From Escherichia coli (GTDB lineage Bacteria > Pseudomonadota > Gammaproteobacteria > Enterobacterales > Enterobacteriaceae), in the NCBI RefSeq assembly GCF_044324875.1, contig NZ_CP172185.1: DNA of 64,000 nt; one strand, given 5' to 3'. Under the pieces are notes generated by a model. That model was not told the origin of the DNA and ran no database searches. It worked only from the letters and a program-made list of their open reading frames with translations. Both the position numbers and the translations under genes were made by a program. This document shows positions 4,394 through 28,351 of the stretch, one piece after another (within the stretch, counting starts at the first letter, position 1; every line of letters begins with the position of its first letter).

Positions 4394-4457
4394 AAACAGC
4401 CATTCAACGCCGCTACGGTGCATGAAACCATTACAGAACGCACCAGGAGAGAACACC

Positions 4458-5549: not shown

Positions 5550-5592
5550 AATTAAAATGAGCCATCTCCACTCAGCCAGATAAGGAGAAGCC

Positions 5593-5844
5593 ATGTTCCG
5601 TTGTCCCCTGTGCGGTGCATCCGCACGTATCCGCACCAGTCGCAATGAAAATGATTCAGGCACAGTTCGCCTGAAGTACTACCAGTGCAATAACCTCGAA
5701 TGCGGGATCGGCTTTACCACACTGGAGGGTTTTAACAAATTCACATCAAAACGCGCCCCGTCGCCGCAGGGTACAGAGCGGATACCGTGGGAAGATTTTC
5801 CGGGATCTCACAGGGGGAATGCTCAGATGAATCTTGATATTTAA
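5593..5844 (+). CDS. ogr: Ogr-family zinc-finger late-gene transcription activator
   Basis: 83 aa. Begins MFRCPLCGASARIRTSRNE with CPLC...C(N)NLEC zinc-finger spacing. AAGGAGA ribosome-binding site. Confidence 0.85.
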   Translation: MFRCPLCGASARIRTSRNENDSGTVRLKYYQCNNLECGIGFTTLEGFNKFTSKRAPSPQGTERIPWEDFPGSHRGNAQMNLDI

Positions 5845-5990
5845 GAACAATAATCAGGTTGAGAGGACATCATAAGGCAAGTAGATTAACGGCAGATACT
5901 TTCCCGCAACCACGGGCAAGTATTTAATTATCCATGATGAAATATGACCTAAATTGTTTTTTGCCCGCCGGAAAGCGGGCATTTTTTTAT
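5845..5990 (+). repeat. Repeat unit A: sequence downstream of ogr ending in an intrinsic terminator (candidate phage right arm plus att core)
   Basis: Shares the core ggttgag...agtagattaac...ttatccatgat...gcccgcc-N-gcgggc-T7 with units B and C. Confidence 0.6.
5963..5988 (+). terminator. Intrinsic terminator, copy 1 (gcccgccggaaagcgggc + T7)
   Basis: GC stem-loop followed by a T-run on the plus strand. Confidence 0.75.
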
Positions 5991-6202
5991 TCTTTTGTGG
6001 TTATGGGGTCATCAGGAACCACGTGCAGATTATATTTTTGTTTTTTTGGCGTTCCTCCGGCAGCAACGAGTTCATCAATAAGACACTGACACGCCTGAAC
6101 ATCCCGGGCATGTCTTAGTTTCACCTTTATTGATTTAACCTTATCCTCACCGGAGGAGAAATGCAGTTCAATCTCAATATCGTTTCTTCGGAACAATCTC
6201 AT
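5987..6202 (-). CDS. Hypothetical small protein (71 aa) in an AT-rich islet
   Basis: ATG at 6202 preceded by a GGGGGG ribosome-binding site. AT-rich promoter-like sequence upstream, with TATAAT-like hexamers. No family recognised by eye. Confidence 0.45.
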   Translation of the reverse strand: MRLFRRNDIEIELHFSSGEDKVKSIKVKLRHARDVQACQCLIDELVAAGGTPKKQKYNLHVVPDDPITTKE

Positions 6203-6429
6203 ACGCCCCCCTGAATATATCAGAAATGCTAGTATCGAAAAATGAGAAAACAGTTAGACAGGAGAAACATATTAACACAAATCATTTATACCTATAGATG
6301 AAATTATAATTTCATTCATGAATATGATAGATAACTATATTGTGAACAAAATGAAAAATGGCTAAATTAAAAATGGGCATGGAGGAATGCCTCGTAATCA
6401 GTAATACATGATCCATACTTCCTTGTTTT

Positions 6430-6455
6430 GCCCGCCGGAAAGCGGGCATTTTTTT
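6430..6455 (+). terminator. Intrinsic terminator, copy 2 (hairpin identical to copy 1)
   Basis: gcccgccggaaagcgggc + T7. Together with copy 1 it forms a near-identical ~30-bp direct repeat flanking the AT-rich islet. Confidence 0.75.
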
Positions 6456-6657
6456 GGCGGTTACCATCGCCTCACCTTCCTGGTTCACACAAAGCAACCC
6501 TGATTTTCCATGAAAACTTCAGGGTTGAGCCAAAAGCACAAAGACAGTAGATTAACCAAGGGTACCCGCCACCTGCCAACAGGAACGGTATCCAGTACGT
6601 ATTAATGACTGACAATTCACATTGCTGTTTTGCCCGCCAGAAGGTGGGCATTTTTTT
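6456..6657 (+). repeat. Repeat unit B: paralogue of units A and C, ending in terminator copy 3
   Basis: Aligns by eye with unit C over about 200 bp. Contains a degenerate ogr 3'-end-like segment (ttcaca...gattttcc). Confidence 0.6.
6632..6657 (+). terminator. Intrinsic terminator, copy 3 (gcccgccagaaggtgggc + T7)
   Basis: GC stem-loop followed by a T-run. Confidence 0.7.
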
Positions 6658-6861
6658 GGCAGTTATCATGGACGCACCTTCATGACACATATTAAGCAGA
6701 CCTGATTTTTCCATGAAAAATTCATGGTTGAGACAAAAGCACAAAAACAGTAGATTAACCACGGGTGCCTGCCACCTGACAACAGGAAGGGGTGTCCATT
6801 ATCCATGATATACAAACGAAAAGTCTTGTCTTTTGCCCGCCGTTGCGCGGGCTTTTTTTTT
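6658..6861 (+). repeat. Repeat unit C: paralogue of units A and B, ending in terminator copy 4
   Basis: Same architecture as unit B. Confidence 0.6.
6835..6861 (+). terminator. Intrinsic terminator, copy 4 (gcccgccgttgcgcgggc + T9)
   Basis: GC stem-loop followed by a T-run. Confidence 0.7.
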
Positions 6862-6890
6862 GCCACCCTCACCAGTGAGGGTACCATCAT

Positions 6891-7112
6891 TCAGAGGCGC
6901 GTAAGCCACCCGGCGTTAACATCCTGCCCGTCAACCCTGACCGCAGAGTCTGAACGGCAGGCACCGGAAGCAGTACCAAAAACACCTCTGACAAGTTCCG
7001 CCACCTTCCCGATATCATCAGGCGCCACATTCCTCACCTCGACAGTGATCCGTGGCGTACCATCATCGTTAACAAGCGTGGCTTTAAGGCTGGTACGACG
7101 GGCAAATAACAT
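6891..7112 (-). CDS. Hypothetical small protein (73 aa)
   Basis: ATG at 7112 with an AGGGAGG ribosome-binding site about 9 nt upstream. GC-rich, between repeat unit C and the copA promoter. No family recognised. Confidence 0.45.
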   Translation of the reverse strand: MLFARRTSLKATLVNDDGTPRITVEVRNVAPDDIGKVAELVRGVFGTASGACRSDSAVRVDGQDVNAGWLTRL

Positions 7113-7172
7113 CAACACCCCCTCCCTTCGGTTCGTTGCACTGGCAGCACGATACCACCAGGAAAAAGAAAA

Positions 7173-7203
7173 GCCCACAACGTCAGGATTGCGGGCTTTT
7201 TTT
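7173..7203 (+). terminator. Intrinsic terminator, copy 5 (gcccacaacgtcaggattgcgggc + T7), related to copies 1-4
   Basis: Stem-loop followed by a T-run, directly upstream of the copA promoter. Confidence 0.65.
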
Positions 7204-7269
7204 CTTCAAAAATGGACACTACGTGGACACTGATTAAATAATCCTTTCTTAATCAGACTGTTAAAATGC

Positions 7270-9845: not shown

Positions 9846-10273
9846 TTGGTATTTACTTAATGCGTTTGTGAGATCCAGTTCTTGTTGCGCTCCTTTTATG
9901 AGTCATGCCATATAAAGTGACTGGCGCAGGGAGCGCGCAGGGGGCGGCCAATCGCCGCCGCCCCCTGCCCCCCCGGGCTCTGGCGAACAAAATCGCCGCT
10001 GCGCGGTACCCTCAGCTTATCCCTTGCGGCTACCGGGTCGGGCGCGAGGTAACATCCCTGTAAAACGCGCCCTCAGCCCACATCCATGTGGGCTGCCCCG
10101 GCCTTCAGGGAACGCCTCGGCGATTTTGACGCCACCAACACCGGTGCAGTCTTTCGTTTCAAAGCAAAAACAATTTTTCGATCATATTTAAGCTACCACT
10201 GAACAAGCCTCATAACTCCATTTGCGCCATCCCTCCCCGCGCGCTAGCATGATATTTCACAAAGGGAGGTCGT

Positions 10274-11068
10274 ATGGATCTGTTGTACCGGGTAAAAACG
10301 CTTTGGGCCGCGCTGCGCGGTAATCATTACACCTGGCCTGCTATCGATATCTCTCTTCCCGGCAATCGCCATTTTCATCTGATTGGCAGTATTCATATGG
10401 GTAGCCACGATATGGCTCCCCTGCCCACCCGTTTGCTCAAAAAGCTCAAAAACGCCGATGCGCTGATCGTCGAGGCGGATGTTTCCACCAGCGATACGCC
10501 TTTTGCTAATTTGCCTGCCTGCGAGGCGCTGGAAGAGCGCATTAGCGAGGAGCAACTCCAAAATCTGCAGCACATTAGCCAGGAGATGGGCATTTCTACC
10601 TCACTCTTTTCTACCCAACCGCTGTGGCAAATCGCGATGGTTCTTCAGGCGACGCAGGCACAAAAACTGGGGCTGCGGGCAGAATACGGTATCGATTACC
10701 AGCTATTGCAGGCGGCGAAGCAACAACATAAACCCGTGATTGAACTGGAAGGGGCTGAAAACCAGATTGCCATGTTGCTCCAGCTCCCTGACAAAGGACT
10801 GGCGCTGCTGGACGATACGCTGACCCACTGGCACACCAATGCACGGTTGCTGCAACAAATGATGAGCTGGTGGCTGAATGCGCCGCCGCAAAATAATGAA
10901 ATAACGCTGCGTAATACGTTCAGTCAATCGCTGTACGATGTGCTGATGCATCAGCGAAATCTCGCCTGGCGGGACAAATTATGCGCCATGCCGCCGGGGC
11001 GCTATGTGGTCGCAGTCGGTGCACTACACCTGTATGGAGAAGGGAATTTGCCGCAGATGTTGCGCTAA
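10274..11068 (+). CDS. ybaP: TraB-family protein YbaP
   Basis: 264-aa ORF matching E. coli YbaP from memory. Confidence 0.9.
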   Translation: MDLLYRVKTLWAALRGNHYTWPAIDISLPGNRHFHLIGSIHMGSHDMAPLPTRLLKKLKNADALIVEADVSTSDTPFANLPACEALEERISEEQLQNLQHISQEMGISTSLFSTQPLWQIAMVLQATQAQKLGLRAEYGIDYQLLQAAKQQHKPVIELEGAENQIAMLLQLPDKGLALLDDTLTHWHTNARLLQQMMSWWLNAPPQNNEITLRNTFSQSLYDVLMHQRNLAWRDKLCAMPPGRYVVAVGALHLYGEGNLPQMLR

Positions 11069-11150
11069 AAAAATGGCCAATATCGCTATTGGCCCGTCAA
11101 AGAGGAATTTCATATTTTTATTATTATGCCGTCACTTTAAGCGACGGTGT
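11067..11150 (-). ncRNA. chiX: ChiX (SroB/MicM) small RNA
   Basis: Reverse complement reads ACACCGTCGCTTAAAGTGACGGCATAATAATAAAAA...GGCCAATAGCGATATTGGCCATTTTTTT, in the ybaP-ybaK intergenic region. Confidence 0.9.
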
Positions 11151-11256
11151 AACTCGATTGTCGCTCAATCTCACCATCCTGCCAATACTCTTAGGCAAGA
11201 TGACTCTTTTTTTTGGACCGCCATCAGGCGTATGCTTGCTTCGTTTTTTTGTTTAA

Positions 11257-11751
<495 letters not shown>

Positions 11752-11787
11752 GCATTGTGCCGGATGCGAACATCCGGCACTTTCGGA

Positions 11788-13440
11788 TTACTGCCAGCTC
11801 ACCTCACCTTTCGGTTCATAGACACTCACATCCAGCGGCGAGCTCTTCTGGATATACGCTTTCAGCACTTCGGCATCAATAAAGCCGGTATTCACATAGC
11901 CCGGTTTGTTATCAAGGCGCGGATAGCCATCACCGCCGGTGGCATTGAAGTTTAATGTCGCCATACGGTAAGTTTTCGCTGGATCGACCGGTTCGCCTTT
12001 GATTTTAAGGTCGTTCAGTTTGCCGTCTTTCGCCACAAAGCTAACGTTGGCAAATTGCGGGTAGGCACCTGAATCTGGCTTCATTTGTGCGACGGCGGTC
12101 AGGTAATCAATCACCTCTTTACCGGTCATGTCGGCATACACCACCACATTGCCGAATGGCTGCACTTTCAGCACGTTTTTATAGCTGATATCGCCTGCTT
12201 CGATAGAATCACGAATTCCGCCTCCACTCATCACCGCAAAGTCAGCACCAGTGCGATCCATTTGTGCTGCCAGAATTAACCGCCCCATATTGGTCTGTAC
12301 AAAACGCACTTTGTCACGATCGCCTTCCAGACGACCATTGGTTTCGCCTATTTTCACGTCCAGCTGCGCTTTGCCTTTGTTCTGGAACGGCGATAACAGC
12401 GAGATCATTTGCTGGTTTTCAGCGATTTCAGGAGTGTAAAGCACGCGCTCGCTTTTCCCGTCTTCCCAGGTAACTTTCTTCTTCAGGTTCACCGGAATCA
12501 GCTGGTAGTTAACCATTTTCATTTCGCCATTACGAAACTCAAAATCAGCCCGTCCCACGTATTTGCCCCACTCATGCGCCTGCACAATCCAGATGCCGTT
12601 TTGTTGATCCGGTTTGCATGGCGTACCCGGCACGTAATCGACCTGTTTTTTGTTTTCTGCCGCCATGCAGACCGGATCTTGCGAGTGACCACCGACGATC
12701 ATCGCCAGCGATCCGGCAGGCAGCGCGCGCGCCATCTCCACATCGCCCGGTGCGTTAGAGCCGTGCTCACCATTGTCGTAATGCCCCATATGGGTCGCCG
12801 CGATAATAATGTCTGGCTTTTCTGTCTGTTGCAGCTCCTGAATCACCAGCTTCGCTTCATCGGCGGGCTTACGGAACTCAATATCGGTGAAGTTTTCTGG
12901 GTTGCCTAACTTCGCTGTGTCATCCGTCGTCAGGCCAATAACGGCAATTTTCAGATCCTGACGCTTAAACAGCGCCCATGGTTTAAACAGGCGCTCGCCG
13001 GTACTTTTCTGGTAGATATTGGCAGAAAGTAACGGGAACTTTGCCCACTTTTCCTGCTGGCGTAATACGGTGAGCGGGTTATCAAATTCATGATTACCGA
13101 TTGCCATCGCATCGTAACCCACCAGATTCATGCCGCGAAAATCAGGTTCGGCATCCTGTAAGTCAGACTCGGGCACGCCAGTGTTAATGTCGCCACCGGA
13201 AAGTAGCAGCACGCTACCGCCTTCAGCCGCAACCTCTTTGCGGATACCATCCACCAGCGTTTTTTGCGCCGCCAGACCATATTCGCCATATTCATTGCGC
13301 CAAAAATGCCCATGATGATCATTGGTGTGCAGAACTGTAATTTTGTAGGTTTTATCCTGCTCATACGCCAGAGCAGTTTCACTCGCCAGTGTAAATGTGG
13401 TTAACAGTGCTAACGCCACGCCCCGCTGCAATAATTTCAT
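11788..13440 (-). CDS. ushA: UDP-sugar hydrolase / 5'-nucleotidase
   Basis: 550 aa with signal peptide and metallophosphatase motifs. Confidence 0.95.
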   Translation of the reverse strand: MKLLQRGVALALLTTFTLASETALAYEQDKTYKITVLHTNDHHGHFWRNEYGEYGLAAQKTLVDGIRKEVAAEGGSVLLLSGGDINTGVPESDLQDAEPDFRGMNLVGYDAMAIGNHEFDNPLTVLRQQEKWAKFPLLSANIYQKSTGERLFKPWALFKRQDLKIAVIGLTTDDTAKLGNPENFTDIEFRKPADEAKLVIQELQQTEKPDIIIAATHMGHYDNGEHGSNAPGDVEMARALPAGSLAMIVGGHSQDPVCMAAENKKQVDYVPGTPCKPDQQNGIWIVQAHEWGKYVGRADFEFRNGEMKMVNYQLIPVNLKKKVTWEDGKSERVLYTPEIAENQQMISLLSPFQNKGKAQLDVKIGETNGRLEGDRDKVRFVQTNMGRLILAAQMDRTGADFAVMSGGGIRDSIEAGDISYKNVLKVQPFGNVVVYADMTGKEVIDYLTAVAQMKPDSGAYPQFANVSFVAKDGKLNDLKIKGEPVDPAKTYRMATLNFNATGGDGYPRLDNKPGYVNTGFIDAEVLKAYIQKSSPLDVSVYEPKGEVSWQ

Positions 13441-13657
13441 ACTTCTCTCCCTGACCTGATTTCAACGTGTTGAAAAATAGTATGACGCGACATCATAGAC
13501 AAGTCTGCGTCCGGTGAAGATAAATCTGCATCCAGATTAGAAATTCTGTATTCAGCGTTGAGACTTCCTTCAGGCGACGCATACAGGTATGTTAGTCGGG
13601 TAATAATCACAAATAAGATCATTCTTTACATCGCAACCCTGAAAAAGTGACTTTCCT

Positions 13658-14878
13658 ATGGCAATGAGTGAACAAACCCAGCCTGTGGCGGGCGCGGCTG
13701 CGTCAACGACCAAGGCCCGAACATCGTTTGGTATTTTAGGTGCTATCAGCCTCTCACATCTGCTGAACGACATGATCCAATCGCTGATTCTGGCGATTTA
13801 TCCGCTGCTTCAGTCAGAATTTTCTCTGACATTTATGCAGATTGGCATGATAACCCTCACCTTCCAGCTCGCCTCTTCGCTACTGCAACCAGTGGTCGGC
13901 TACTGGACCGATAAATATCCGATGCCGTGGTCGTTGCCAATTGGCATGTGCTTTACCTTAAGTGGTCTGGTGCTGCTGGCGCTGGCGGGCAGTTTTGGCG
14001 CAGTTCTGCTGGCGGCGGCGCTGGTCGGTACCGGTTCATCGGTCTTTCATCCGGAATCTTCTCGCGTAGCCCGTATGGCTTCCGGCGGGCGGCATGGCCT
14101 GGCGCAATCTATCTTCCAGGTCGGCGGCAACTTTGGCAGTTCCCTGGGACCCTTGCTGGCGGCGGTGATTATCGCGCCTTATGGCAAAGGCAACGTTGCC
14201 TGGTTTGTGCTTGCGGCACTGCTGGCGATCGTGGTGTTGGCGCAAATCAGCCGTTGGTACTCGGCACAGCACCGAATGAATAAAGGAAAACCCAAAGCGA
14301 CGATTATCAATCCGCTGCCGCGCAACAAAGTGGTACTGGCGGTCAGCATTCTGTTAATCCTCATTTTCTCGAAATATTTCTATATGGCGAGCATCAGCAG
14401 CTATTACACCTTTTATCTGATGCAAAAATTCGGATTATCTATCCAGAATGCTCAGCTTCATCTGTTTGCCTTCCTGTTTGCCGTTGCGGCAGGTACGGTG
14501 ATCGGCGGGCCTGTAGGGGATAAAATTGGGCGAAAATATGTGATTTGGGGCTCTATCCTCGGCGTTGCGCCGTTTACGCTGATTTTACCCTACGCCAGCC
14601 TGCACTGGACGGGGGTTTTAACGGTGATTATTGGATTTATCCTCGCTTCGGCATTCTCTGCCATTCTGGTCTACGCTCAGGAGCTACTTCCGGGACGTAT
14701 CGGTATGGTTTCTGGACTCTTTTTCGGTTTTGCTTTTGGCATGGGAGGTCTGGGAGCGGCAGTTCTGGGGCTTATCGCCGATCACACCAGCATCGAGTTA
14801 GTCTATAAAATCTGTGCTTTCCTGCCACTATTGGGGATGTTGACCATATTCCTGCCTGATAACCGGCATAAAGACTGA
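13658..14878 (+). CDS. fsr: Fosmidomycin-resistance MFS transporter
   Basis: 406-aa polytopic membrane protein matching Fsr. Confidence 0.93.
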   Translation: MAMSEQTQPVAGAAASTTKARTSFGILGAISLSHLLNDMIQSLILAIYPLLQSEFSLTFMQIGMITLTFQLASSLLQPVVGYWTDKYPMPWSLPIGMCFTLSGLVLLALAGSFGAVLLAAALVGTGSSVFHPESSRVARMASGGRHGLAQSIFQVGGNFGSSLGPLLAAVIIAPYGKGNVAWFVLAALLAIVVLAQISRWYSAQHRMNKGKPKATIINPLPRNKVVLAVSILLILIFSKYFYMASISSYYTFYLMQKFGLSIQNAQLHLFAFLFAVAAGTVIGGPVGDKIGRKYVIWGSILGVAPFTLILPYASLHWTGVLTVIIGFILASAFSAILVYAQELLPGRIGMVSGLFFGFAFGMGGLGAAVLGLIADHTSIELVYKICAFLPLLGMLTIFLPDNRHKD

Positions 14879-15115
14879 TTTCATTGCAGCCAAAGGCAAA
14901 CTTTGGCTGCATCATTTTACAGTCGCCATAAGCCTTTCCTCTGTTAAACCGCCTTCAGTTTTCCGATCCGTGCTTTTTTTGCAGCTAATTCCATTTTTCT
15001 GCAAAATTCAACAATTATTCATAAACATCATCAATGAAATTGTCATAAACTATTACCTGTAATTTTGGTTTTCCCGGCCAAAAATGGACAATAACCACCA
15101 GGAAAAGGAGACGGA

Positions 15116-16792
15116 ATGCATCACGCCACCCCGCTTATCACCACCATTGTTGGCGGCCTTGTGCTCGCCTTTATCCTCGGCATGCTGGCCAATAAACTAC
15201 GTATTTCTCCTCTGGTGGGATATCTGTTAGCGGGTGTGCTGGCAGGACCATTCACTCCGGGCTTTGTTGCCGATACCAAGCTTGCGCCGGAACTGGCTGA
15301 ACTGGGCGTCATTCTGTTGATGTTTGGCGTGGGTCTGCACTTTTCGCTGAAGGATTTGATGGCGGTAAAGGCCATCGCCATTCCCGGCGCGATCGCCCAG
15401 ATAGCCGTGGCGACGCTGCTGGGTATGGCGCTCTCCGCCGTGCTGGGCTGGTCGTTAATGACCGGTATCGTGTTCGGCTTATGCCTTTCCACCGCCAGTA
15501 CCGTGGTGTTACTGCGCGCACTTGAAGAACGGCAATTAATAGACAGTCAGCGTGGGCAAATCGCCATCGGTTGGTTGATTGTGGAAGACCTGGTAATGGT
15601 TCTGACGCTGGTGTTGCTGCCCGCAGTTGCAGGAATGATGGAACAAGGCGATGTGGGCTTTGCCACTCTTGCTGTCGATATGGGGATCACCATCGGCAAG
15701 GTGATCGCATTTATCGCCATTATGATGCTGGTAGGTCGCCGTCTGGTGCCGTGGATTATGGCACGCAGCGCAGCAACCGGTTCCCGTGAGCTGTTTACCC
15801 TGTCGGTGCTGGCGCTGGCGTTAGGGATTGCCTTTGGTGCGGTGGAGCTGTTTGATGTCTCCTTTGCACTCGGTGCGTTCTTTGCCGGGATGGTACTGAA
15901 CGAGTCTGAACTGAGTCACCGTGCCGCCCACGATACGCTGCCATTGCGCGATGCGTTTGCGGTGCTGTTTTTTGTCTCCGTCGGGATGTTGTTTGATCCG
16001 TTAATTCTGATTCAGCAACCGCTGGCAGTGCTGGCGACGCTGGCGATTATTCTGTTTGGTAAGTCGTTAGCCGCTTTTTTCCTGGTGCGACTGTTTGGTC
16101 ACTCCCAACGTACGGCATTAACTATCGCCGCCAGCCTGGCGCAAATTGGTGAGTTCGCGTTTATCCTGGCGGGACTGGGCATGGCGCTGGATCTGTTGCC
16201 GCAAGCCGGGCAGAACCTGGTACTGGCAGGGGCGATTTTGTCGATTATGCTCAACCCGGTCCTGTTTGCGCTGCTGGAGAAATATCTGGCGAAGACCGAA
16301 ACGCTGGAAGAGCAGACGCTGGAAGAGGCTATCGAAGAAGAGAAGCAGATCCCAGTGGATATTTGCAACCATGCGCTACTGGTAGGTTACGGTCGTGTAG
16401 GCAGCCTGCTGGGGGAGAAATTGCTCGCCTCTGATATTCCGCTGGTGGTGATTGAGACGTCACGAACCCGTGTTGATGAACTGCGAGAGCGCGGGGTCCG
16501 CGCAGTATTGGGCAATGCAGCGAACGAAGAAATTATGCAACTGGCGCATCTGGAATGTGCTAAATGGCTGATCCTGACGATTCCCAACGGTTATGAAGCG
16601 GGCGAGATTGTGGCATCTGCCCGCGCGAAAAATCCGGATATTGAGATTATCGCCCGCGCCCATTATGACGATGAAGTGGCGTATATCACCGAACGTGGCG
16701 CGAATCAGGTAGTGATGGGTGAGCGTGAAATTGCTCGTACTATGCTAGAACTGCTGGAAACACCACCGGCGGGTGAAGTGGTGACGGGGTAA
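15116..16792 (+). CDS. ybaL: Cation:proton antiporter (CPA2 family) with C-terminal RCK domain
   Basis: 558 aa; membrane domain followed by a Rossmann GxGxxG segment. Confidence 0.93.
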   Translation: MHHATPLITTIVGGLVLAFILGMLANKLRISPLVGYLLAGVLAGPFTPGFVADTKLAPELAELGVILLMFGVGLHFSLKDLMAVKAIAIPGAIAQIAVATLLGMALSAVLGWSLMTGIVFGLCLSTASTVVLLRALEERQLIDSQRGQIAIGWLIVEDLVMVLTLVLLPAVAGMMEQGDVGFATLAVDMGITIGKVIAFIAIMMLVGRRLVPWIMARSAATGSRELFTLSVLALALGIAFGAVELFDVSFALGAFFAGMVLNESELSHRAAHDTLPLRDAFAVLFFVSVGMLFDPLILIQQPLAVLATLAIILFGKSLAAFFLVRLFGHSQRTALTIAASLAQIGEFAFILAGLGMALDLLPQAGQNLVLAGAILSIMLNPVLFALLEKYLAKTETLEEQTLEEAIEEEKQIPVDICNHALLVGYGRVGSLLGEKLLASDIPLVVIETSRTRVDELRERGVRAVLGNAANEEIMQLAHLECAKWLILTIPNGYEAGEIVASARAKNPDIEIIARAHYDDEVAYITERGANQVVMGEREIARTMLELLETPPAGEVVTG

Positions 16793-16799
16793 ACGGTGG

Positions 16800-16920
16800 T
16801 TGCCGGATGTAAAATATGAAAAATATGTAGGCATGATAAGACGCGCCAGCGTCGCATCAGGCATTGAGAGCAAAATGCCAGATGCGGCGTGAACGCCTTA
16901 TCTGGCCTACGAACCGACGA
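16800..16920. repeat. REP/BIME palindromic elements
   Basis: GCCGGATG...GCATCAGGC and GCCTTATCTGGCCTACG-type REP sequences between convergent ybaL and gsk. Confidence 0.7.
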
Positions 16921-16924
16921 TAAC

Positions 16925-18229
16925 TTAACGATCCCAGTAAGACTCTTCCAGGCTGTCTTCACGCTCCGGCAAGCCGCGCGTTAAACGAGGTGAATGCTGG
17001 TTCAGTACCTGATAGCTCACACGGTTAGCATATTTACACACCTGCGCTAACGATGAATAAGTTAACCAGGTGAATTTATGTTTGCTGGAGTTTGGTACGT
17101 TGCTACGGTGGTAGCTGTTGGCGGTAATATCATGCAGCAACGCTGCCAATGCGCCATCCCCTGCTCCGTTAGTGTTCATGATTTTTTCCGGCCCGCCCAT
17201 GTACGGCGCAATGTGCGAATAGACACGCAGCGGATTCTGGCAATCCTTGTGGCGCATGGCGCGGCTAAACTCATACTGGTTAAATTCCGCTATAGCGCCC
17301 GGCAGCAGTGGATGCTGGGTTTTACGTTTCGCTTCGTCTTCAGTAAAGCCCGCCATATACAAGCCGATTGGCCCGGCGGTGCACAGCACCAGATCAACCC
17401 AGTCCAGCGCCTTGTCAGATGCCAACAACGGATCGCTTTCTCCGGTCAACGCTTCGGCCTCATCTTCGTTCATCGCAAGGATAGAGACGTGATCTTTGAG
17501 GAATTGCTGCCACCACTGCGGATTCTCGGCAATGACAAACTTGGTGCCCAGCGTCAGCACCACCGGTACGTTATATTTCTTCGCGTACTCAATGGCTTTC
17601 ATGGTTGCTTCCGGCATGGGTTCACCCGGCTTGCAACGCACCAGATAAGAAGTGAGAACCAGTGCCGAGGCTCCGGCAATCACATCTTCCGGAATACTTT
17701 CAGCCCGCAGCTGGTTCATGTGGCCAGGGCTGATAGCAAAGGTACGTTCCCCGGACTCGCCAATCAGCGTAAAGCAACGACCTATCGGGCCATCCACGCC
17801 TTGTAGATAGTTAAGATCGGTACGGCTGGAGGTGTTACACAGGTAACGATAGGCATAGCTGCCAATTTCAATATTGCTGCACATGACGCCCAGCAGCACC
17901 TAACGGTCGTCCGCGAGCACCGAGTAGTTGTGCATGGTGTTACCAATAGTGCCACCCGCAAACTGATGGGTAATCAGGTTTTTCTGTTTTAGTTCCTGAT
18001 AAAGCGCTTCGGCTACGTCATCCTCAATCACCAGTGAATGCCCGGCGCTTAATCCATAACGCTCAATGAATTCATCATCCACTTTCGCTTCAATATCGAC
18101 CAGCGTTTGATCGATACCCACTACCCAGGCGGCGCTGGTTTCGTTTTCTGGCTGGAACTGCTGAAGCAGCGGATCGCGTGCATTTACAGGGAAGTAATGT
18201 TTGGATTTACGTTTACCGGGAAATTTCAT
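16925..18229 (-). pseudogene. gsk: Inosine-guanosine kinase interrupted by an in-frame TAG at codon 110
   Basis: Track ORFs 17900..18229 and 16925..17899 are contiguous in one frame, separated only by TAG (plus-strand cta at 17900-17902). 109 + 1 + 324 = 434 codons, the length of Gsk. Confidence 0.85.
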
Positions 18230-18380
18230 GGTTGTTTTTACGGGTGGTTAACTGAGCGGCGAATGTTAACACAATCTGACGGGAGCGCGCGAGACGCAGC
18301 CAGTTTCAATATCAGCAGGCGGGATCGCATTTTCATGGCAGTGGTTCCTTACAATGACGTAATTTGAAAGGAGTTTTTGC

Positions 18381-19340
18381 ATGAAGCCGGAAAACCAATT
18401 ACCCGTTCTGGACCTTATTTCTGCTGAAATGAAGACCGTTGTGAATACTCTTCAGCCGGATTTACCGCCCTGGCCCGCTACGGGAACGATTGCTGAGCAA
18501 CGACTGTATTACGCGCTTGAGCGCCGATTCTGGAATGCGGGCGCTCCAGAAATGGCAACCAGAGCTTACATGGTTCCAACAAAATATGGGCAGGTGGAAA
18601 CACGTCTCTTTTGTCCGCAGCCAGATAGTCCGGCGACGCTATTTTATTTGCATGGCGGCGGTTTTATTCTCGGCAATCTCGATACCCACGATCGCATCAT
18701 GCGCCTGCTGGCAAGCTACAGCCAATGTACGGTGATTGGCATTGATTACACCCTTTCACCTGAAGCGCGTTTTCCGCAAGCAATAGAGGAAATTGTGGCT
18801 GCCTGTTGTTATTTCCACCAGCAGGCGGAAGATTATCAAATCAATATGTCCCGCATTGGCTTTGCCGGTGATTCCGCAGGTGCCATGTTGGCGCTCGCCA
18901 GTGCGTTGTGGTTGCGTGATAAACAGATCGATTGCGGTAAAGTTGCGGGCGTTTTGCTGTGGTATGGGCTTTACGGATTACGGGATTCCGTGACTCGTCG
19001 TCTGTTGGGCGGTGTCTGGGATGGCTTAACGCAACGGGATTTACAGATGTATGAAGAGGCGTATTTAAGCAACGACGCGGACCGCGAGTCGCCGTATTAC
19101 TGCCTGTTTAATAATGATCTCACTCGCGAAGTCCCGCCCTGTTTTATTGCCGGGGCGGAGTTCGATCCGCTGCTGGATGACAGCCGTCTGCTTTACCAGA
19201 CGTTAGCGGCGCATCAGCAGCCCTGTGAGTTCAAACTCTACCCAGGCACGCTGCACGCCTTTTTGCATTATTCACGGATGATGAAAACCGCCGACGAGGC
19301 TCTTCGCGACGGCGCTCAATTCTTTACCGCTCAGCTTTAG
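18381..19340 (+). CDS. aes: Acetyl esterase
   Basis: 319 aa with HGGG and GDSAG motifs. Ends with TAG and overlaps the hemH 3' end by 4 nt. Confidence 0.95.
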
Positions 19341-20299
19341 CGATACGCGGCAACAAGATTAGCCATCATTTCAATATGTTCCGGCGTGGCATTAAGCGCC
19401 GGAATATATTCGTATTTTTTCCCGCCCGCACCGAGGAAGACCTCACGGTTTTGCTCGGCAATCTCTTCCAGCGTCTCCAGACAATCCGCAGCAAAGCCCG
19501 GGCACATCACCTGAATATGACCTACGCCTTTTTCTCCGAGCATTTTCAGCGTTTCGTCGGTATAAGGCATCAGCCAGGGTTCCCGCCCAAAGCGCGACTG
19601 AAAGGTCATCATCACTTTTTCCGGTGCCATCCCCAGTGCGGAAGCCAGTTCGCGAGTCGTTGTGCGGCAACGCTGTGGGTAATCATCACCTTCATCTGCA
19701 TAACGTTGAGGAATGCCGTGATAAGAGAGCAGCAGCAGATCCGGCTCGCCATGTTTGGCAAAAGAAGCGCGTACGCTGTTCGCCAGTGCATTAATGTAAT
19801 CGTGGTTATCGGCGTAATCACGAATAAACGATATCCCCGGAATGCTACGTTTGCGCGCCAGAATGCGTGCCAGTTCATCCCATACCGCACCGACCGTTGA
19901 ACAGGAGTATTGCGGATAAAGCGGCAGCACCACAATATGATCTACATGCTCTGCCAGGAGTTCATCTACGGCGCTTTCCAGTGATGGCGAGCCGTAGCTC
20001 ATTCCCAGCGCTACGGGCGTCTCCGGTAAACGTTGTGCCAGCGCCTGCTGTTGCTGGCGGCTGTAAACCATCAGCGGCGAGCCACCTTCCATCCAGACAG
20101 AGGCATACAGCTTCGCCACACGCGGCGAGCGCAGCGGCAAAATCACGCCGCGCAGCAACGGCCACCATAACAACCGTGAGGTATCAACCACGCGTCTGTC
20201 GCTTAAAAATTGTTTCAGATAGCGTTTTACCGCTTCAGGTGTGGGGGCATCGGGCGTACCCAGGTTTGCCAGCAGGATACCGGTTTTAGTCTGACGCAT
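19337..20299 (-). CDS. hemH: Ferrochelatase
   Basis: 320-aa ORF matching HemH. Confidence 0.95.
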
Positions 20300-20430
20300 T
20301 ACCGCCTCTTATCGATTCAACTTGTTGATAATTGTAGCGGAAAAGTGAAGAAGAAGAACTAATTGCTGTGAGAGGTATTGCCTGAGGAGGATGAGCAGAC
20401 CTGCCCGAAAGCAGATCTGCTGCGGCTTGA

Positions 20431-21147
<717 letters not shown>

Positions 21148-21255
21148 TCAAGAAAGGCACCTGGGGCTGAAACGGTTAATGGCGAGATAATTTGCGGAAA
21201 GTGCAGATAATGAAAAGAAAAATGCCGGATGACACGAAGGTCATCCGGCATGACA

Positions 21256-23130
21256 TCAGGAAACCAGCAGCTGGTTCATACGACGAATAAACAGGTTCGG
21301 ATCTTCCAGCGTGCCGCGTTCTGCCAGCAGCGCCTGATCCAGCAGCAGTTCTACCCACTCGCTGAACTTCGCTTCATCTTCAGTATCTGCCGCACGTTTC
21401 ACCAGTACGTGATCCGGGTTCAGTTCGAAGATGTATTTCACTTCTGGCACTTTCTGGCCCGCCGCAGCGAACAGTTTCGCCATCTGAGTGCTCATTTCGT
21501 CCGCGTCGGTAGAGACAATCGCTGGCGTATCGGTCAGACGGTGAGTCAGACGGACATCTTTCACGCGCTCGCCGAGCAGGGCTTTCACACGGTCGATGAA
21601 CGGAGTCAGGGCTTTCTCCGCTTCTTTCGCGCTCTCATCAACTTCGTCAGCCAGTTTTTCCAGCGACTCGTCAACTTTAGACACAGACTGGAACGGTTTA
21701 CCGTCGAACTCAGTCAGATAGTTCATCATCCACTCATCGATGCGGTCGGAAAGCAGCAGAACTTCGATGCCTTTCTTACGCAGCAGTTCCAGGTGCGGGC
21801 TGCTCTTCGCTGCCGCATAGCTGTCTGCGGTGATGTAGTAAATTTTCTCCTGCCCTTCTTTCATGCGGGAAACGTAGTCTTCCAGAGACACGGTCTGCGC
21901 AGAAGAATCGGTATGAGTAGACGCAAAACGCAGCAGTTTGGCGATCGCTTCCTGGTTAGCGAAATCTTCCGCCGGACCTTCTTTCAGTACCAGGCCAAAC
22001 TGTTGCCAGAAGGTCTGGTATTTTTCCGCGTCGTCTTTCGCCAGTTTTTCCAGCATTTGCAGCACACGCTTGGTCAGCGCATTGCGCAGGTTACGCGTTA
22101 CCGTGCTGTCCTGGAGGATTTCACGGGAAACGTTCAGCGGCAGATCGCTGGAGTCAATCAGACCACGCACGAAGCGCAGATAGTTCGGCATGAACTGTTC
22201 TGCGTCGTCCATGATGAACACACGCTGGACGTACAGTTTCAGGCCATGTTTATGATCGCGGTTCCACATATCCCACGGAGCCTGGGACGGAATGTACAGC
22301 AGGCTGGTGTACTCCTGCTTACCTTCAACACGGTTGTGGCTCCAGGTCAGCGGATCGTTAAAGTCGTGGGCGATGTGTTTGTAGAACTCTTTGTACTCTT
22401 CATCGGTGATTTCCGACTTGTTACGGGTCCACAGCGCCTGCGCTTTGTTGATTTTCTCCCAGGAGATAACGGTTTCGCCGTCTTTCTCTTCGCGTTTTTC
22501 GATCTCTACCGGCAGCGCGATATGGTCGGAATATTTGCTGATGATGGAACGCACACGCCAGTCATCGAGGAACTCGTCTTCGCCTTCACGCAGATGCAGG
22601 GTGATTTCAGTACCACGATCTTCTTTAGTGATGTCGGCAACGGTGTATTCACCTTCGCCAGCCGATTCCCAGAAGACGCCGTTTTCTGGTTTTTCGCCTG
22701 CCGCGCGAGTACGCACGGTCACTTTGTCAGCCACGATAAAAGCAGAGTAGAAACCAACACCAAACTGACCGATCAGCTGGCTGTCTTTCGCCTGGTCAGA
22801 ACCCAGGGATTCGAGGAATGATTTGGTGCCGGATTTAGCGATAGTCCCCAGATGGTCAATCACTTCGTCGCGGGTCATCCCCACGCCGTTATCGGAGATG
22901 GTCAGCGTGCGCTTGTCTTTATCGAAAGAGACACGAACGCGCAGTTCGCCATCACCTTCGTACAGGTCCGGGTTAGAGAGCGCGCGGAAACGCAGCTTGT
23001 CCGCCGCATCGGAGGCGTTAGAGATAAGCTCACGCAGGAAGATTTCTTTATTGGAATAGAGAGAATGGATCATCAGGTGCAGAAGCTGTTTCACTTCTGA
23101 CTGAAAACCACGAGTTTCTTGTCCTTTCAT
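21256..23130 (-). CDS. htpG: Hsp90-family chaperone
   Basis: 624-aa ORF matching HtpG. Confidence 0.97.
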
Positions 23131-23239
23131 GTAGGTCTACCTCAATAATGCCATTTTAAGGTTAAAAACAGGATGTGGGAGAGATGGGGACAAGGGAGAA
23201 TAATTTCAAGCGAGAGCAGGTGATCCTGCTCTCGTTTGC

Positions 23240-23844
23240 TTAAAAACGAATCTTATGACGCCCGGCAAGGGAGTGTGACAGCGTGGTGCCATCGACCATT
23301 TCCAGCTCGCCGCCAACCGGTACGCCATGAGCGATTCGGCTGGCTTCCACGTCATATTGCGCGCAAAGCTCGGCAATGTAGTTAGCGGTAGCTTCACCTT
23401 CAACCGTGGGGTTGGTGGCGAGGATCACTTCAGTGATTTTTTCCTCTGCCAGACGCTGTTCCAGACGATCAAGCCCGATATCATCCGGACCGATGCCGTC
23501 CAGCGGTGACAGGTGTCCCATCAACACAAAATAACGGCCTGAAAACTGCCCCGTCTGCTCAATGGCGTAGATGTCCGCCGGACTCTCCACCACGCAGATT
23601 TGACCGTTTTCCTGACGACGCGGATTCGAACAGATGTTACAGACTTCCTGTTCGGTGAAGGTGCGGCAATCGGCGCAGTGGCCGATTTCCGACATCGCCC
23701 GGGTGAGCGCCTGCGCCAGACGCATCCCGCCGCTACGATCGCGCTGAAGCAGCGTGAACGCCATACGCTGCGCCGACTTCGGGCCAACGCCCGGCAGACA
23801 GCGCAGTGCTTCCATAAGCTGTGTTAACAGCGGGCTGGTTTGCA

Positions 23845-23845
<1 letters not shown>
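23240..23845 (-). CDS. recR: Recombination protein RecR
   Basis: 201 aa with zinc-finger and Toprim motifs. Confidence 0.96.
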
Positions 23846-24189
<344 letters not shown>

Positions 24190-24226
24190 TCACGTTAAGG
24201 ATGACGAACGTAAGCTGTGCTTACGA

Positions 24227-26158
24227 TCAAATGGGGCGGATACTTTCTTCATCCAGCTCCGCATCGAAGAATCGACGCAGGGTCTGAATATTATTATCCG
24301 CAATAATGGACTCGCGCGCCTGCGCAAGTTTTTCTTCGTATATCGCCTGACGCCATTCCAGCGGCGTACGCACCGCGGGATTATCATCTTCAACGATAGT
24401 CAGTTCAACCGTTGAACCTTTTAACGTGCTCAACGCTTCAGCCAGTTTTTGCTGTGCGCCGCGGTTGTTCAAATGCCGCTGAGAGGAGCGCAAATGCAGA
24501 CATACTGCGTTGTCGCTCTCCTCTTTCCAGGCATTTAACGCCACCTGTTCGACCAGTTTTGGTAGCGAAAGTTGACTCACCTGAGCCGCCCACGGGTCGC
24601 GCTCAATGGCTTCTGCCGCCAGCTTCGCCGCCAGTTCCGGCGTTTTTTCATGTTCCAGCGCTTTTTTTAGCGCCTTCGGCGTGGCGACCACTTCTTTTTG
24701 CTGCATCACTGGAGTGGTAGCCTTCCAGCGATACGCTTCTTTTTTGGCTGGCGCTTTTTCCAGCGCCGATGGCACCGGACGCGCCTGAACGCGATCGGTG
24801 ACCGAAGCCAGTCTTTCCAGCGCAGCGTTATTCACCGGCCGCGCGCGGGTAGCGGCTGCCGGTTCACTCTTTTTTGCTTTGGTTGCTCCCTGCACGCGCT
24901 GCAACTGCTGGCGCGCCGCCAGCACCTGGCTGGTGGTTTCCGGGAGCGGTACAGTCGGTGCCTGCTGCGGCGCTGATTGCGGTTGTGGCGGCACCTGGGT
25001 TGGCGTCATTACTGCCGTTGGCGCAACGAGCGCAAAGGACTGGCGTGGCACTTCTGGCTCAGGCAGAGGCATACGCGGATGGAACGCCAGCGCGCGCAGC
25101 AGCGTCATCTCAACACCCATACGGCGGTCTGGCGCATACGGTAATTCTTTGCGACCAATCAACAGCGTCTGATAGTAAAGCTGAATATCCGTCGGCGGTA
25201 TGGTGCGCGCCAGTTCACGCATCCGCAGCTCAATGGCGGCCATGTCGTTGCCAAGAGCAGCAGGCGAAAGTTGTACCATCGCAATACGATGCAACAGACC
25301 GAGCATTTCCACCAGCAACGCTTCCCACTCGATACCACGGGCAGCAGCTTCATTAATTAGCGCCATTACGCGCTCGCCGTTGGCCTCGACCATCGCTTCA
25401 ACCAGCGATAACGCCTGATCGTCGTCAAGCGTACCCAGCATCGCACTGACCGCCTGGGTTGAAACCTGGCCGTCACCGCTGGCAATCGCCTGGTCGGTCA
25501 GACTTAAGGCATCTCGCAGGCTGCCTTCAGCGGCGCGTGCCAACAATTGCAGCGCCCGCGGCTCGTGAGCGATATGTTCTTCGTTGAGGATGTGCTCAAG
25601 CTGATGGCGAATTTGCTCGACATCCAGCGCCTTGAGATGAAATTGCAGACAGCGTGACAAAATCGTCACCGGCAATTTCTGCGGATCGGTCGTCGCCAGC
25701 AAAAACTTAACGTGCTCTGGCGGCTCTTCAAGGGTTTTTAACAGTGCGTTAAAGCTGTGACGCGACAGCATATGCACTTCGTCGATGAGATAAACTTTGA
25801 AACGACCACGCGCCGGAGCGTACTGGACGTTATCCAGCAGGTCGCGAGTGTCTTCAACTTTAGTGCGCGAGGCGGCGTCGATTTCAATCAGATCGACAAA
25901 GCGCCCCTGCTCGATTTCACGACAATTATCGCACACGCCGCACGGCGTCGCGGTAATGCCGGTTTCGCAGTTTAGCCCCTTCGCCAGCAGTCGGGCGATA
26001 GAGGTTTTTCCGACGCCACGGGTACCGGAAAAAAGATAAGCATGATGAATACGCCCTAACGACAAGCCGTTCGCCAGTGCGGTCAGCACATGTTCCTGGC
26101 CGACGACGTCAGCAAAGGTTTGTGGGCGCCATTTTCGGGCTAAGACCTGATAACTCAT
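24227..26158 (-). CDS. dnaX: DNA polymerase III tau subunit; gamma arises by programmed -1 frameshift
   Basis: 643 aa. A AAA AAG slippery heptamer (plus-strand cttttttg, 24869-24876) at codons encoding AKKSE. Confidence 0.97.
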   Translation of the reverse strand: MSYQVLARKWRPQTFADVVGQEHVLTALANGLSLGRIHHAYLFSGTRGVGKTSIARLLAKGLNCETGITATPCGVCDNCREIEQGRFVDLIEIDAASRTKVEDTRDLLDNVQYAPARGRFKVYLIDEVHMLSRHSFNALLKTLEEPPEHVKFLLATTDPQKLPVTILSRCLQFHLKALDVEQIRHQLEHILNEEHIAHEPRALQLLARAAEGSLRDALSLTDQAIASGDGQVSTQAVSAMLGTLDDDQALSLVEAMVEANGERVMALINEAAARGIEWEALLVEMLGLLHRIAMVQLSPAALGNDMAAIELRMRELARTIPPTDIQLYYQTLLIGRKELPYAPDRRMGVEMTLLRALAFHPRMPLPEPEVPRQSFALVAPTAVMTPTQVPPQPQSAPQQAPTVPLPETTSQVLAARQQLQRVQGATKAKKSEPAAATRARPVNNAALERLASVTDRVQARPVPSALEKAPAKKEAYRWKATTPVMQQKEVVATPKALKKALEHEKTPELAAKLAAEAIERDPWAAQVSQLSLPKLVEQVALNAWKEESDNAVCLHLRSSQRHLNNRGAQQKLAEALSTLKGSTVELTIVEDDNPAVRTPLEWRQAIYEEKLAQARESIIADNNIQTLRRFFDAELDEESIRPI

Positions 26159-26286
26159 TGGCAGGCTCTGAAACGCTGGAAGGTGGATTCACGAAGGGGT
26201 AATGCTAACACAGCCCCGTCAGAACGGCGAGGCTGAATGCACATCTTGTGCTGTCCGTAGCGTGGGCAGCACAAGACTGGCGATAA

Positions 26287-26838
26287 TTAATGGCCCGGGA
26301 ACGGGACAAGGCTGTAGCTGGTAATGCCCTGTTTTTCGAGACGCTGTTCGCCGCCGAGATCGAACAGGTTGATAATGAACGCAGCGTCAGCCACTTCACC
26401 ACCCAGACGACGGATCAGTTTAACGGTCGCTTCGATAGTGCCGCCGGTTGCCAGCAGATCGTCCACCACCAGAACTTTGTCGCCCGGTTTGATGGCATCA
26501 ACGTGGATTTCCAGCTGATCGGTGCCGTATTCCAGATCGTAAGTTTCACTGATGGTCTCACGCGGCAGTTTGCCCGGTTTACGGACCGGTACAAAGCCAA
26601 CGCCCAGACCCAGAGCTACCGGAGCGCCAAACAAGAAGCCACGCGCTTCGGTGCCGACAACTTTGGTAATGCCCGCATTTTTGTAACGCTCAACCAGCAA
26701 GTCGATGCTGAGAGCGTAAGCTTTCGGGTCTTCCAGTAAGCTGGTGACATCACGGAAAAGAATGCCGGGTTTTGGGTAGTCCTGAATGCTTTTGATGCTA
26801 TTTTTGAGATACTCAAGCTGCTGTGCAGTCGCGGTCAT
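26287..26838 (-). CDS. apt: Adenine phosphoribosyltransferase
   Basis: 183 aa from [12 protein letters not shown]. Confidence 0.96.
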
Positions 26839-26990
26839 AAGTGTATGCCTGCTTGTTACGGTGGTACTCACGGCGCGTTTTAAACGTATCAAAAGTAACA
26901 GTTGTTTAACCTTTGACCGCCTGCGCCTGTGCTCGAAAACGCCAGAATGTACTGGCTGTACGCAATAATTGCAACTGCGATTGTTGTGCT

Positions 26991-27368
26991 TCAGTGCTTT
27001 TCTTGCTTTTCATCAATCACCGGAATTCGCCACATATAAAAAAGCAAACAGGCGAGAATTACCAGCAACATGATGCGCACCCATGGCATCTGGACGAACC
27101 ACAGAGAAATTGCAAACGTGAGCAAAATAAGCAAAATCGCCCGCGGTTTGACGCCGCGCGGCATCGCATGATGTTTCTGCCAGAAACGTAGATAGCTGCC
27201 AAACCATGAGCGGTACAGCAACCAGGCGTGAAAGCGCGGGGAAGAACGGGCAAAGCACCAGGCCGCCAGCAGGATAAACGGCGTCGTCGGTAATACCGGT
27301 AATACCACGCCCAGCGTACCCAGCACTACCGCCAGCCAGCCAATGATGATTAAAATGATTCGTTGCAT
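26991..27368 (-). CDS. ybaN: DUF454 inner-membrane protein
   Basis: 125-aa ORF matching YbaN. Confidence 0.9.
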
Positions 27369-27437
27369 ATTGAGTGTTGTCAGCTTACAGAGTGGCTACC
27401 TTAGCATAACAATTATCATTTTCATTGAGGTCTTATC

Positions 27438-27965
27438 GTGAAAACCGCCCTGCTGCTGGAAAAACTGGAAGGACAGCTCGCCACGCTGCGCCAGCGTTGT
27501 GCCCCGGTAGCGCAATTTGCCACGCTAAGTGCGCGTTTTGACAGGCACCTTTTTCAAACCCGTGCGACAACACTACAGGCTTGTCTCGATGAGACGGGCG
27601 ATAATCTGGCTGCGCTTCGTCATGCCGTTGAGCAACAGCAACTGCCGCAAGTCGCCTGGCTGGCAGAACATCTGGCGGCGCAACTGGAAGCCATCGCGCG
27701 TGAAGCCACAGCCTGGTCGCTACGCGAGTGGGACAGCGCGCCACCAAAAATTGCCCGCTGGCAGCGTAAACGTATTCAGCATCAGGATTTTGAGCGGCGG
27801 CTACGTGAGATGGTAACCGAACGTCGAGCCCGCCTGGCGCGGGTGACCGATCTCGTGGAACAGCAAACGCTGCATCGTGAAGTGGAAGCCTATGAAGCGC
27901 GCCTGGCACGCTGCCGCCATGCGCTGGAAAAAATCGAAAACAGGTTAGCGCGTTTAACCCGCTAG
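27438..27965 (+). CDS. priC: Primosomal replication protein N''
   Basis: 175-aa ORF matching PriC. Confidence 0.93.
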
Positions 27966-27978
27966 CAATGGAGAGAGT

Positions 27979-28140
27979 ATGTCACTGGAAAATGCCCCTG
28001 ACGATGTCAAACTGGCTGTCGATTTGATTGTGCTGCTGGAAGAAAATCAGATCCCAGCGCGCACCGTGCTGCGCGCGCTGGATATTGTAAAACGCGATTA
28101 TGAAAAGAAATTAACGCGCGATGATGAGGCGGAAAAGTGA
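27979..28140 (+). CDS. ybaM: Small protein YbaM (DUF2496), 53 aa
   Basis: Below the track's size cutoff; atgtcactggaaaatgcccct... encodes [53 protein letters not shown]. Confidence 0.8.
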
Positions 28141-28184
28141 AAAATAAATGGGGCCGCTAAATGTCCCCTAAGATTGCGGGCAAA

Positions 28185-28295
28185 CGCAAAACTGCCTGAT
28201 GCGCTACGCTTATCAGGCCTACACCGCTCCTGCAATATATTGAATTCTTGCGGTTTCGTAGGCCGGATAAGGCGGTCACGCCGCATCCGGCATGA
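28185..28295. repeat. REP/BIME palindromic elements
   Basis: gcctgatgcgctacgcttatcaggcctac...gccggataaggcggtcacgccgcatccggc. Confidence 0.75.
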
Positions 28296-28351
28296 ACAAC
28301 GCGCACTTTGTCAGTAATCTCGGGGCAACTAAATGTCGCCCCCTTTGGTTA

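What the first reader, a model, noticed from the sequence alone, without database searches (positions are those of the whole stretch)
17897..17905. Premature amber codon in gsk (inosine-guanosine kinase)
gsk is the only conserved housekeeping gene in the window that is broken, and it is broken by a single in-frame TAG at codon 110; both flanking segments remain fully open in the same frame. From memory the wild-type residue is serine (DDRSVLLG), so this would be a one-base change. TAG is used as a normal stop nearby (aes ends in TAG), so nothing suggests genome-wide recoding. The result would be a truncated 109-aa product unless an amber suppressor is present. It could be a recent loss-of-function mutation affecting purine salvage, a marker of a laboratory strain, or a sequencing error.
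Basis: partly seen in the sequence, partly recalled or inferred. Interest (0 to 1): 0.5.

Follow-up and report, generated by a model that had tools for sequence, protein, structure and literature searches.

The report
Recent nonsense mutation inactivating gsk
A single C-to-A base change has put a stop codon at position 110 of the non-essential purine-salvage gene gsk in this E. coli strain; this is an ordinary, recent gene knockout of a kind seen at many positions of the gene in public genomes.

Summary
It results from one change, TCG(Ser) to TAG, at window base 17901. Apart from the stop, the encoded protein is identical to the protein of K-12 and strain 042. All 44 other genes shared with K-12 are intact, and TAG is a normal stop for 6 of the 45.

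A sequencing error is unlikely. A contig assembled separately by Logan from a public run is 100% identical over 7.3 kb, TAG included.

The same change also occurs on two other E. coli backgrounds. One of them differs from a complete wild-type genome by this one base in 16.8 kb. So the change arose at least three times.

That recurrence is not special. Control codon W277 is also a true stop on three backgrounds, and Q173* marks another clone.

No complete RefSeq E. coli genome among the 5,232 that the probe matched (of 5,426) carries the allele.

Best reading: a recent, spontaneous, nearly neutral loss of inosine-guanosine kinase. Suppression cannot be excluded from the window. Interest is low.

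The parts
16925..18229 (-). gsk (inosine-guanosine kinase), now a pseudogene: 434 codons with an in-frame amber codon at codon 110
   Evidence: Synteny aes-gsk-ybaL as in 042 and K-12. The restored protein matches solved structures 6vwo/6vwp over residues 1-434.
17900..17902 (-). Premature TAG at codon 110. The mutated base is window 17901: C to A on the coding strand, G to T on the + strand.
   Evidence: Wild type is TCG in 042, NR3736 and CFSAN004176.
17903..18229 (-). N-terminal fragment, residues 1-109, the only product expected from the normal start
   Evidence: Matches positions 1-109 of NCBIfam PRK15074, inosine/guanosine kinase. It lacks the region matched by Pfam PfkB, residues 138-293 and 347-414.
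16925..17899 (-). Untranslated remainder, codons 111-434 plus the normal stop, still open in frame. Gene callers report a 319-aa ORF from Met116.
   Evidence: Matches positions 111-434 of PRK15074. The 319-aa gene call is seen in public contigs. No GGAG, GAGG or AGGA motif lies upstream of GTG111 or ATG116 (sequence).

Best explanation
A spontaneous C:G to A:T transversion changed Ser110 (TCG) of gsk to an amber stop. Translation from the normal start ends after 109 residues.

By my reading of the conserved ribokinase-family motifs (inference from family knowledge, not tested here), this fragment keeps the N-terminal nucleoside-binding motifs, VVGIDQ and GGTIGN. It lacks the ATP-binding part and the catalytic GAGD motif near residue 355. 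The strain therefore has no inosine-guanosine kinase.

gsk is its own transcription unit and converges on ybaL, so no downstream gene is affected.

Guanosine and inosine can still be salvaged by the established alternative route: purine nucleoside phosphorylase (DeoD) followed by the phosphoribosyltransferases Gpt and Hpt. The loss should therefore cost little.

Shown here: the stop, the single-base origin, the unchanged rest of the protein, and the intact neighbouring genes. Inferred: the event is recent, activity is lost, and the effect on fitness is close to neutral.
For: - Single-base origin, with all other differences from 042 synonymous. The only amino-acid difference from K-12 is the stop.
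- The two fragments cover Gsk model positions 1-109 and 111-434. The Pfam PfkB matches lie wholly downstream of the stop.
- TAG ends six other genes in the window, so TAG is read as stop here.
- A Logan-assembled contig (L005, SRR31072984) is 100% identical to the window over 7,351 nt, TAG included.
- The same allele arose elsewhere from wild-type relatives. L013 differs from complete genome NR3736 by this one base in 16,814 nt. L003 differs from CFSAN004176 at 6 of 7,351 nt, one of them this base. That clone turns up in many samples, so gsk-null E. coli persist in nature.
- gsk deletion strains are viable and accumulate guanosine (PMC11186194, citing Matsui et al. 2001). The DeoD route is described in PMC13328217 and PMC10311079.
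- Truncations at other gsk codons are equally common in public data.
Against: - Raw reads were not available. L005 may come from the same isolate as the window, so it rules out an assembly artefact better than a base-calling error.
- A suppressor tRNA elsewhere in the genome cannot be excluded (one search covers only the window).
- No close wild-type relative of the window's own lineage was found. The best is 98.9-99.0% over 20 kb, so the age of the mutation in this lineage is not bounded directly.
- Loss of enzyme activity is inferred, not measured.
Confidence: 0.85

Rival explanations
1. Sequencing or assembly error: the real genome has TCG at codon 110.
For: A single-base difference is the commonest kind of error. 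None of the 5,232 complete RefSeq E. coli genomes that the probe matched has the TAG 50-mer.
Against: The Logan assembly of run SRR31072984, listed for two samples, gives an identical 7,351-nt contig with TAG. The window shows none of the signs of a noisy assembly: all 44 other shared genes are intact. By contrast, L012, L014, L017, L018 and L021 have several split genes in the same region. The identical substitution is present in separate clones and data sets.
Confidence: 0.04
2. The amber codon is bypassed, so the gene still works. This could be through a suppressor tRNA, through programmed read-through, or through re-initiation at the adjacent GTG111 or at ATG116, giving two fragments that reassemble.
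For: The downstream frame is fully open and has no amino-acid change. The stop is immediately followed by GTG (TAG-GTG).
Against: An open, unchanged downstream frame is equally expected for a very recent mutation. The stop is not conserved: no complete genome has it, and the closest relatives of the other carriers have TCG. TAG is a normal terminator in the window. No tRNA gene lies in the window. No Shine-Dalgarno-like motif precedes GTG111 or ATG116. Natural E. coli isolates rarely carry amber suppressors (general knowledge).
Confidence: 0.03
3. Loss of gsk is selected for, not neutral. It might avoid the drain on ATP and PRPP caused by nucleoside salvage, or give resistance to a toxic nucleoside analogue. 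S110* would then be one of many convergent knockouts.
For: S110* arose at least three times. W277* arose three times, Q173* marks another clone, and L019 has a 23-bp deletion at nt 313-335. One S110* clone is seen in many samples. Uncontrolled Gsk activity harms growth during starvation (PMC10311079).
Against: The collection holds an enormous number of E. coli assemblies, so repeated hits at any nonsense-accessible codon of a dispensable gene are expected under mutation and drift alone. No comparison with other genes was made. The allele is absent from 5,232 complete genomes, from the species representatives and from the JGI metagenomes, so it has not spread widely.
Confidence: 0.1
4. Codon 110 is a mutational hotspot.
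For: The identical C to A change sits on three haplotypes. Their nearest distinguishing SNPs (gene nt 267, 300, 351) leave at most about 50-150 nt that could have been shared by recombination.
Against: Control codon W277 also shows three independent true stops. Nine of ten control truncation products are on record, with 1-146 contigs each against 58 for S110*. No repeat tract or known hypermutable motif lies at the site. The change breaks, rather than completes, the short palindrome ACCG-TT-CGGT.
Confidence: 0.05

Closest known systems
E. coli inosine-guanosine kinase Gsk (b0477; NCBIfam PRK15074; PDB 6vwo/6vwp; PfkB/ribokinase family)
   Same: Same locus and synteny (aes-gsk-ybaL). The protein sequence is identical to K-12 and 042 at every residue except 110.
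   Different: The reading frame is interrupted at codon 110, so the full-length enzyme is not expected to be made.
Laboratory gsk null mutants and deletions (classical purine-salvage genetics; gsk knockouts used for guanosine production)
   Same: The expected phenotype is the same: viable, no direct phosphorylation of guanosine or inosine, and guanosine accumulation (PMC11186194).
   Different: This is a natural point-nonsense allele in a non-K-12 strain related to phylogroup D genomes. It is not an engineered deletion.
Other natural gsk truncation alleles in public assemblies (Q173*, W277*, a 23-bp deletion)
   Same: Single events that cut the same gene in otherwise wild-type clones.
   Different: A different codon. 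S110* is found on three backgrounds; the window's own background has no close complete-genome relative.

Membership tests
Inosine-guanosine kinase Gsk (NCBIfam PRK15074) | Sequence matches the family model over its whole length | tested here: met
   The two fragments match model positions 1-109 (204 bits) and 111-434 (689 bits). The restored protein matches PDB 6vwo over 1-434 at E = 1e-301.
Inosine-guanosine kinase Gsk (NCBIfam PRK15074) | Uninterrupted reading frame of about 434 codons | tested here: not met
   In-frame TAG at codon 110.
Inosine-guanosine kinase Gsk (NCBIfam PRK15074) | Conserved position between aes and ybaL | tested here: met
Inosine-guanosine kinase Gsk (NCBIfam PRK15074) | ATP-dependent phosphorylation of guanosine and inosine | not testable with these tools
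   Needs an enzyme assay. Predicted to be absent.
Recent nonsense pseudogene | Stop codon at a position that is a sense codon in orthologues | tested here: met
   TCG in 042, K-12, NR3736 and CFSAN004176. None of the 5,232 complete genomes that the probe matched has the TAG 50-mer.
Recent nonsense pseudogene | No further disabling changes and no amino-acid changes downstream (a sign of recency) | tested here: met
   Zero other amino-acid differences from K-12 and 042, and no indels.
Recent nonsense pseudogene | The stop codon has its standard meaning in this genome | tested here: met
   TAG terminates lon, mdlA, ybaA, tomB, priC and aes at the same positions as in K-12.
Recent nonsense pseudogene | No suppressor tRNA in the genome | not testable with these tools
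   The window has no tRNA gene. The rest of the genome is not available.
Programmed stop-codon read-through or recoding | The stop codon is conserved among orthologues | tested here: not met
   It is absent from the complete E. coli genomes searched, from the GTDB species representatives and from the JGI metagenomes. Where present, it is a derived state within a clone.
Mutational hotspot or contingency locus | More recurrence than at comparable control sites, or a hypermutable repeat at the site | tested here: not met
   Control codon W277 shows three independent true stops, and Q173* one clone. Contig counts for S110* fall within the range of the controls. No repeat at the site.

The most novel reading that the evidence does not exclude
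Loss of gsk is repeatedly favoured in natural E. coli populations. Possible reasons are that direct nucleoside phosphorylation drains ATP and PRPP in nucleoside-rich gut conditions, or that it activates toxic nucleoside analogues. S110* in this strain would then be one of many convergent adaptive knockouts rather than neutral decay. An even less likely variant is that the TAG-GTG junction allows termination and re-initiation, and the two fragments reassemble into an active split kinase.
Probability: 0.1. Interest if true: 0.4.

Novelty: new member of a known kind. Interest (0 to 1): 0.1.

Why it matters
The practical points are small. The gene should be annotated as a pseudogene in this strain. 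The strain is predicted to lack direct guanosine and inosine phosphorylation, which matters if it is used for purine-metabolism or stringent-response work, since Gsk is a ppGpp target. The S110* allele can serve as a lineage marker. The broader point is methodological: in very large sequence collections, the same nonsense mutation recurring on several backgrounds is expected and should not be read as a hotspot or as selection without control sites.

Tried and rejected
1. **Shigella-type genome decay.** I suspected this because no complete E. coli genome is closer than about 99%. I rejected it: all 44 other shared genes are intact, and only one IS lies in 64 kb.

2. **First probe for the allele.** A 61-nt probe overlapped haplotype-specific SNPs at gene nt 300 and 351, so it could not detect the other TAG haplotypes. 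I repeated the search with a 50-nt probe free of those SNPs. A carrier with an extra SNP inside the probe would still be missed.

3. **Contigs ending at codon 110.** Public contigs L006-L011 looked at first like extra carriers. They are only contigs cut at that point, picked up because the look-up is by exact product. The same happens at the control sites.

4. **The 319-aa fragment.** Not all carriers of this product have the TAG. L012, L014, L017, L018 and L021 are frameshifts in error-rich assemblies. L019 has a 23-bp deletion.

5. **Hotspot idea.** Rejected after the control sites.

6. **Collection scans.** Exact 24-mer scans of the GTDB representatives and the JGI metagenomes found nothing. 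The source organism of the window was not identified this way.

7. **Literature.** Searches for natural gsk nonsense alleles or gsk pseudogenes found nothing specific. The only hit was an incidental G202S change in an evolved laboratory line.

Full report
**Observation.** gsk lies on the minus strand at 16925-18229. The '+' strand reads cta at 17900-17902, which is TAG in frame at codon 110. This leaves a 109-aa ORF from the normal start, and the remaining 324 sense codons stay open in the same frame.

Aligned with gsk of E. coli 042, there are six nucleotide differences. Five are synonymous. The sixth is TCG to TAG at gene nt 329, window 17901. Against K-12 the only amino-acid difference is the stop.

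**Context in the window.** From clpP to copA the window is colinear with K-12 (positions about 457,000-511,450), in reverse orientation. Of the 45 shared genes that could be compared end to end, 44 are intact, and gsk is the only one with an internal stop.

Stop-codon use among these genes is TAA 28, TGA 11, TAG 6. aes does end in TAG, so TAG has its normal meaning. The window holds no tRNA gene.

gsk converges on ybaL, so the stop cannot have polar effects on another gene.

**Effect on the protein.** The restored protein matches the solved E. coli Gsk structures 6vwo/6vwp over residues 1-434. The two fragments match positions 1-109 and 111-434 of the NCBIfam Gsk model. The Pfam PfkB matches lie at residues 138-293 and 347-414, all after the stop.

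From what is known of the ribokinase family, the N-terminal 109 residues hold nucleoside-binding motifs. The ATP site and the catalytic GAGD motif lie in the C-terminal part. Neither piece should work alone (inference).

No Shine-Dalgarno-like motif precedes GTG111 or ATG116. The 319-aa ORF that gene callers report is therefore probably not expressed.

**Is the stop real?** The exact 109-aa product is on record on 58 contigs. One of them, L005 (Logan assembly of run SRR31072984, listed for two samples), is 100% identical to the window over 7,351 nt and has the TAG. This may be the same isolate, so it argues mainly against an assembly or polishing artefact. The window also lacks the scattered frameshifts seen in noisy assemblies of the same region.

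**The same allele elsewhere.** TAG110 sits on three gsk haplotypes that differ from each other at about 20 sites:

- W: the window and L005.
- A: L002, L004, L013 and L016.
- B: L003.

The nearest distinguishing SNPs are at gene nt 267, 300 and 351. That leaves only about 50-150 nt that could have been shared by recombination.

Haplotype A (L013, GCA_045619065.1) differs from the complete genome NR3736 by exactly one base in 16,814 nt, and that base is the C to A change. Haplotype B differs from the Shiga-toxin-producing E. coli (STEC) genome CFSAN004176 at 6 of 7,351 nt, one of them the same change. The mutation therefore arose at least three times, each time within an otherwise wild-type clone.

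Clone A appears in isolate assemblies, sequencing runs and a gut metagenome. gsk-null E. coli therefore persist in nature.

The allele is still rare:

- None of the 5,232 complete RefSeq E. coli genomes that the probe matched (of 5,426 in the collection) has the TAG 50-mer.
- A 24-mer carrying the TAG found nothing in the GTDB species representatives or in the JGI metagenomes.

**Is the recurrence unusual?** gsk has 158 possible single-base nonsense changes at 125 codons. I looked up the N-terminal products for ten control sites. Nine are on record, with 1-146 contigs each, against 58 for S110*.

Many of these records are only contigs that end at that point. I therefore read the DNA for two controls:

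- Q173* is a true TAG in a clone seen many times.
- W277* is a true stop on three different haplotypes (TGA, TAG, TGA).

A 23-bp deletion at nt 313-335 in L019 is a further independent knockout. Three origins of S110* are thus what a dispensable gene shows in a collection of this size. They are not evidence for a hotspot.

**Interpretation.** This is a recent, spontaneous nonsense mutation that removes inosine-guanosine kinase.

- gsk deletions are viable and accumulate guanosine (PMC11186194).
- Nucleosides can still be salvaged through DeoD and the phosphoribosyltransferases (PMC13328217; PMC10311079). apt in the window is intact.
- Gsk is a ppGpp target that limits salvage during starvation (PMC10311079). 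Its loss could subtly alter nucleotide balance, but nothing here shows selection.

Still open are a suppressor tRNA elsewhere in the genome, the raw-read support, and whether gsk loss is ever advantageous.

**Lineage.** The window is not a K-12, B, C or Nissle derivative; those strains carry the wild-type codon. Its nearest complete genomes are 98.9-99.0% identical over 20 kb, and its gsk is closest (99.5%) to 042-like genomes. I did not identify the strain.

**Verdict.** It is an ordinary pseudogenising point mutation, a new member of a known kind, and of low interest.

Noticed in passing
window 1-7268: DNA absent from K-12, inserted in the copA-glsA intergenic region; homology to K-12 resumes at 7269, 71 nt upstream of the copA start. 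It carries P2-like prophage late genes: tail sheath (about 3013-4200, minus strand), the adjacent 172-aa protein (2495-3013), a gpD-like tail protein (4422-5549) and an Ogr-like zinc-finger regulator (5593-5844). The window starts inside the element, so its other end and attachment site were not seen.
   Followed up: partly
window 53878-56529: IS21-family element (istA at 54012-55658; istB helper ATPase within 55432-56430), inserted between fadM and ybaV. It has a 4-bp target duplication corresponding to K-12 464373-464376. It is the only IS in the window.
   Followed up: partly
window 9846-10273: ybaQ, which lies between ybaP and copA in K-12, is absent here, as it is in the haplotype-A genome L013. 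Other E. coli loci (L012, L014) have an HTH_3 gene at this spot, so the gene is variably present.
   Followed up: no
window 27438-28140: priC (93.6% identical to K-12) and ybaM (95.7%) are much more divergent than their neighbours ybaN and apt (about 99%). This suggests a locally recombined or fast-evolving segment.
   Followed up: no
window 10000-30000: No complete RefSeq E. coli genome among 5,426 is closer than 98.9-99.0% over these 20 kb. The window's lineage therefore has no close complete-genome relative. The best hits are related to phylogroup D strains (042, O166:H15).
   Followed up: partly
L019 9679-10960 (Logan ERR9385067): An independent gsk knockout: a 23-bp deletion of gene nt 313-335 that removes codon 110 and shifts the frame.
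   Followed up: no
L012, L017, L018, L021 (gsk nt 326-329); L014: These assemblies carry a one-base insertion at or next to the TT at gene nt 327-328 (codons 109-110), plus several other split genes (dnaX, htpG, adk, hemH). This is typical of homopolymer errors in noisy assemblies, and it yields the same 319-aa gene call as the true TAG allele.
   Followed up: partly
L024 1-864 (E. coli NR3736): acrR, the repressor of the AcrAB efflux pump, is interrupted by an IS200/IS605-family element in the closest wild-type relative of TAG haplotype A.
   Followed up: no
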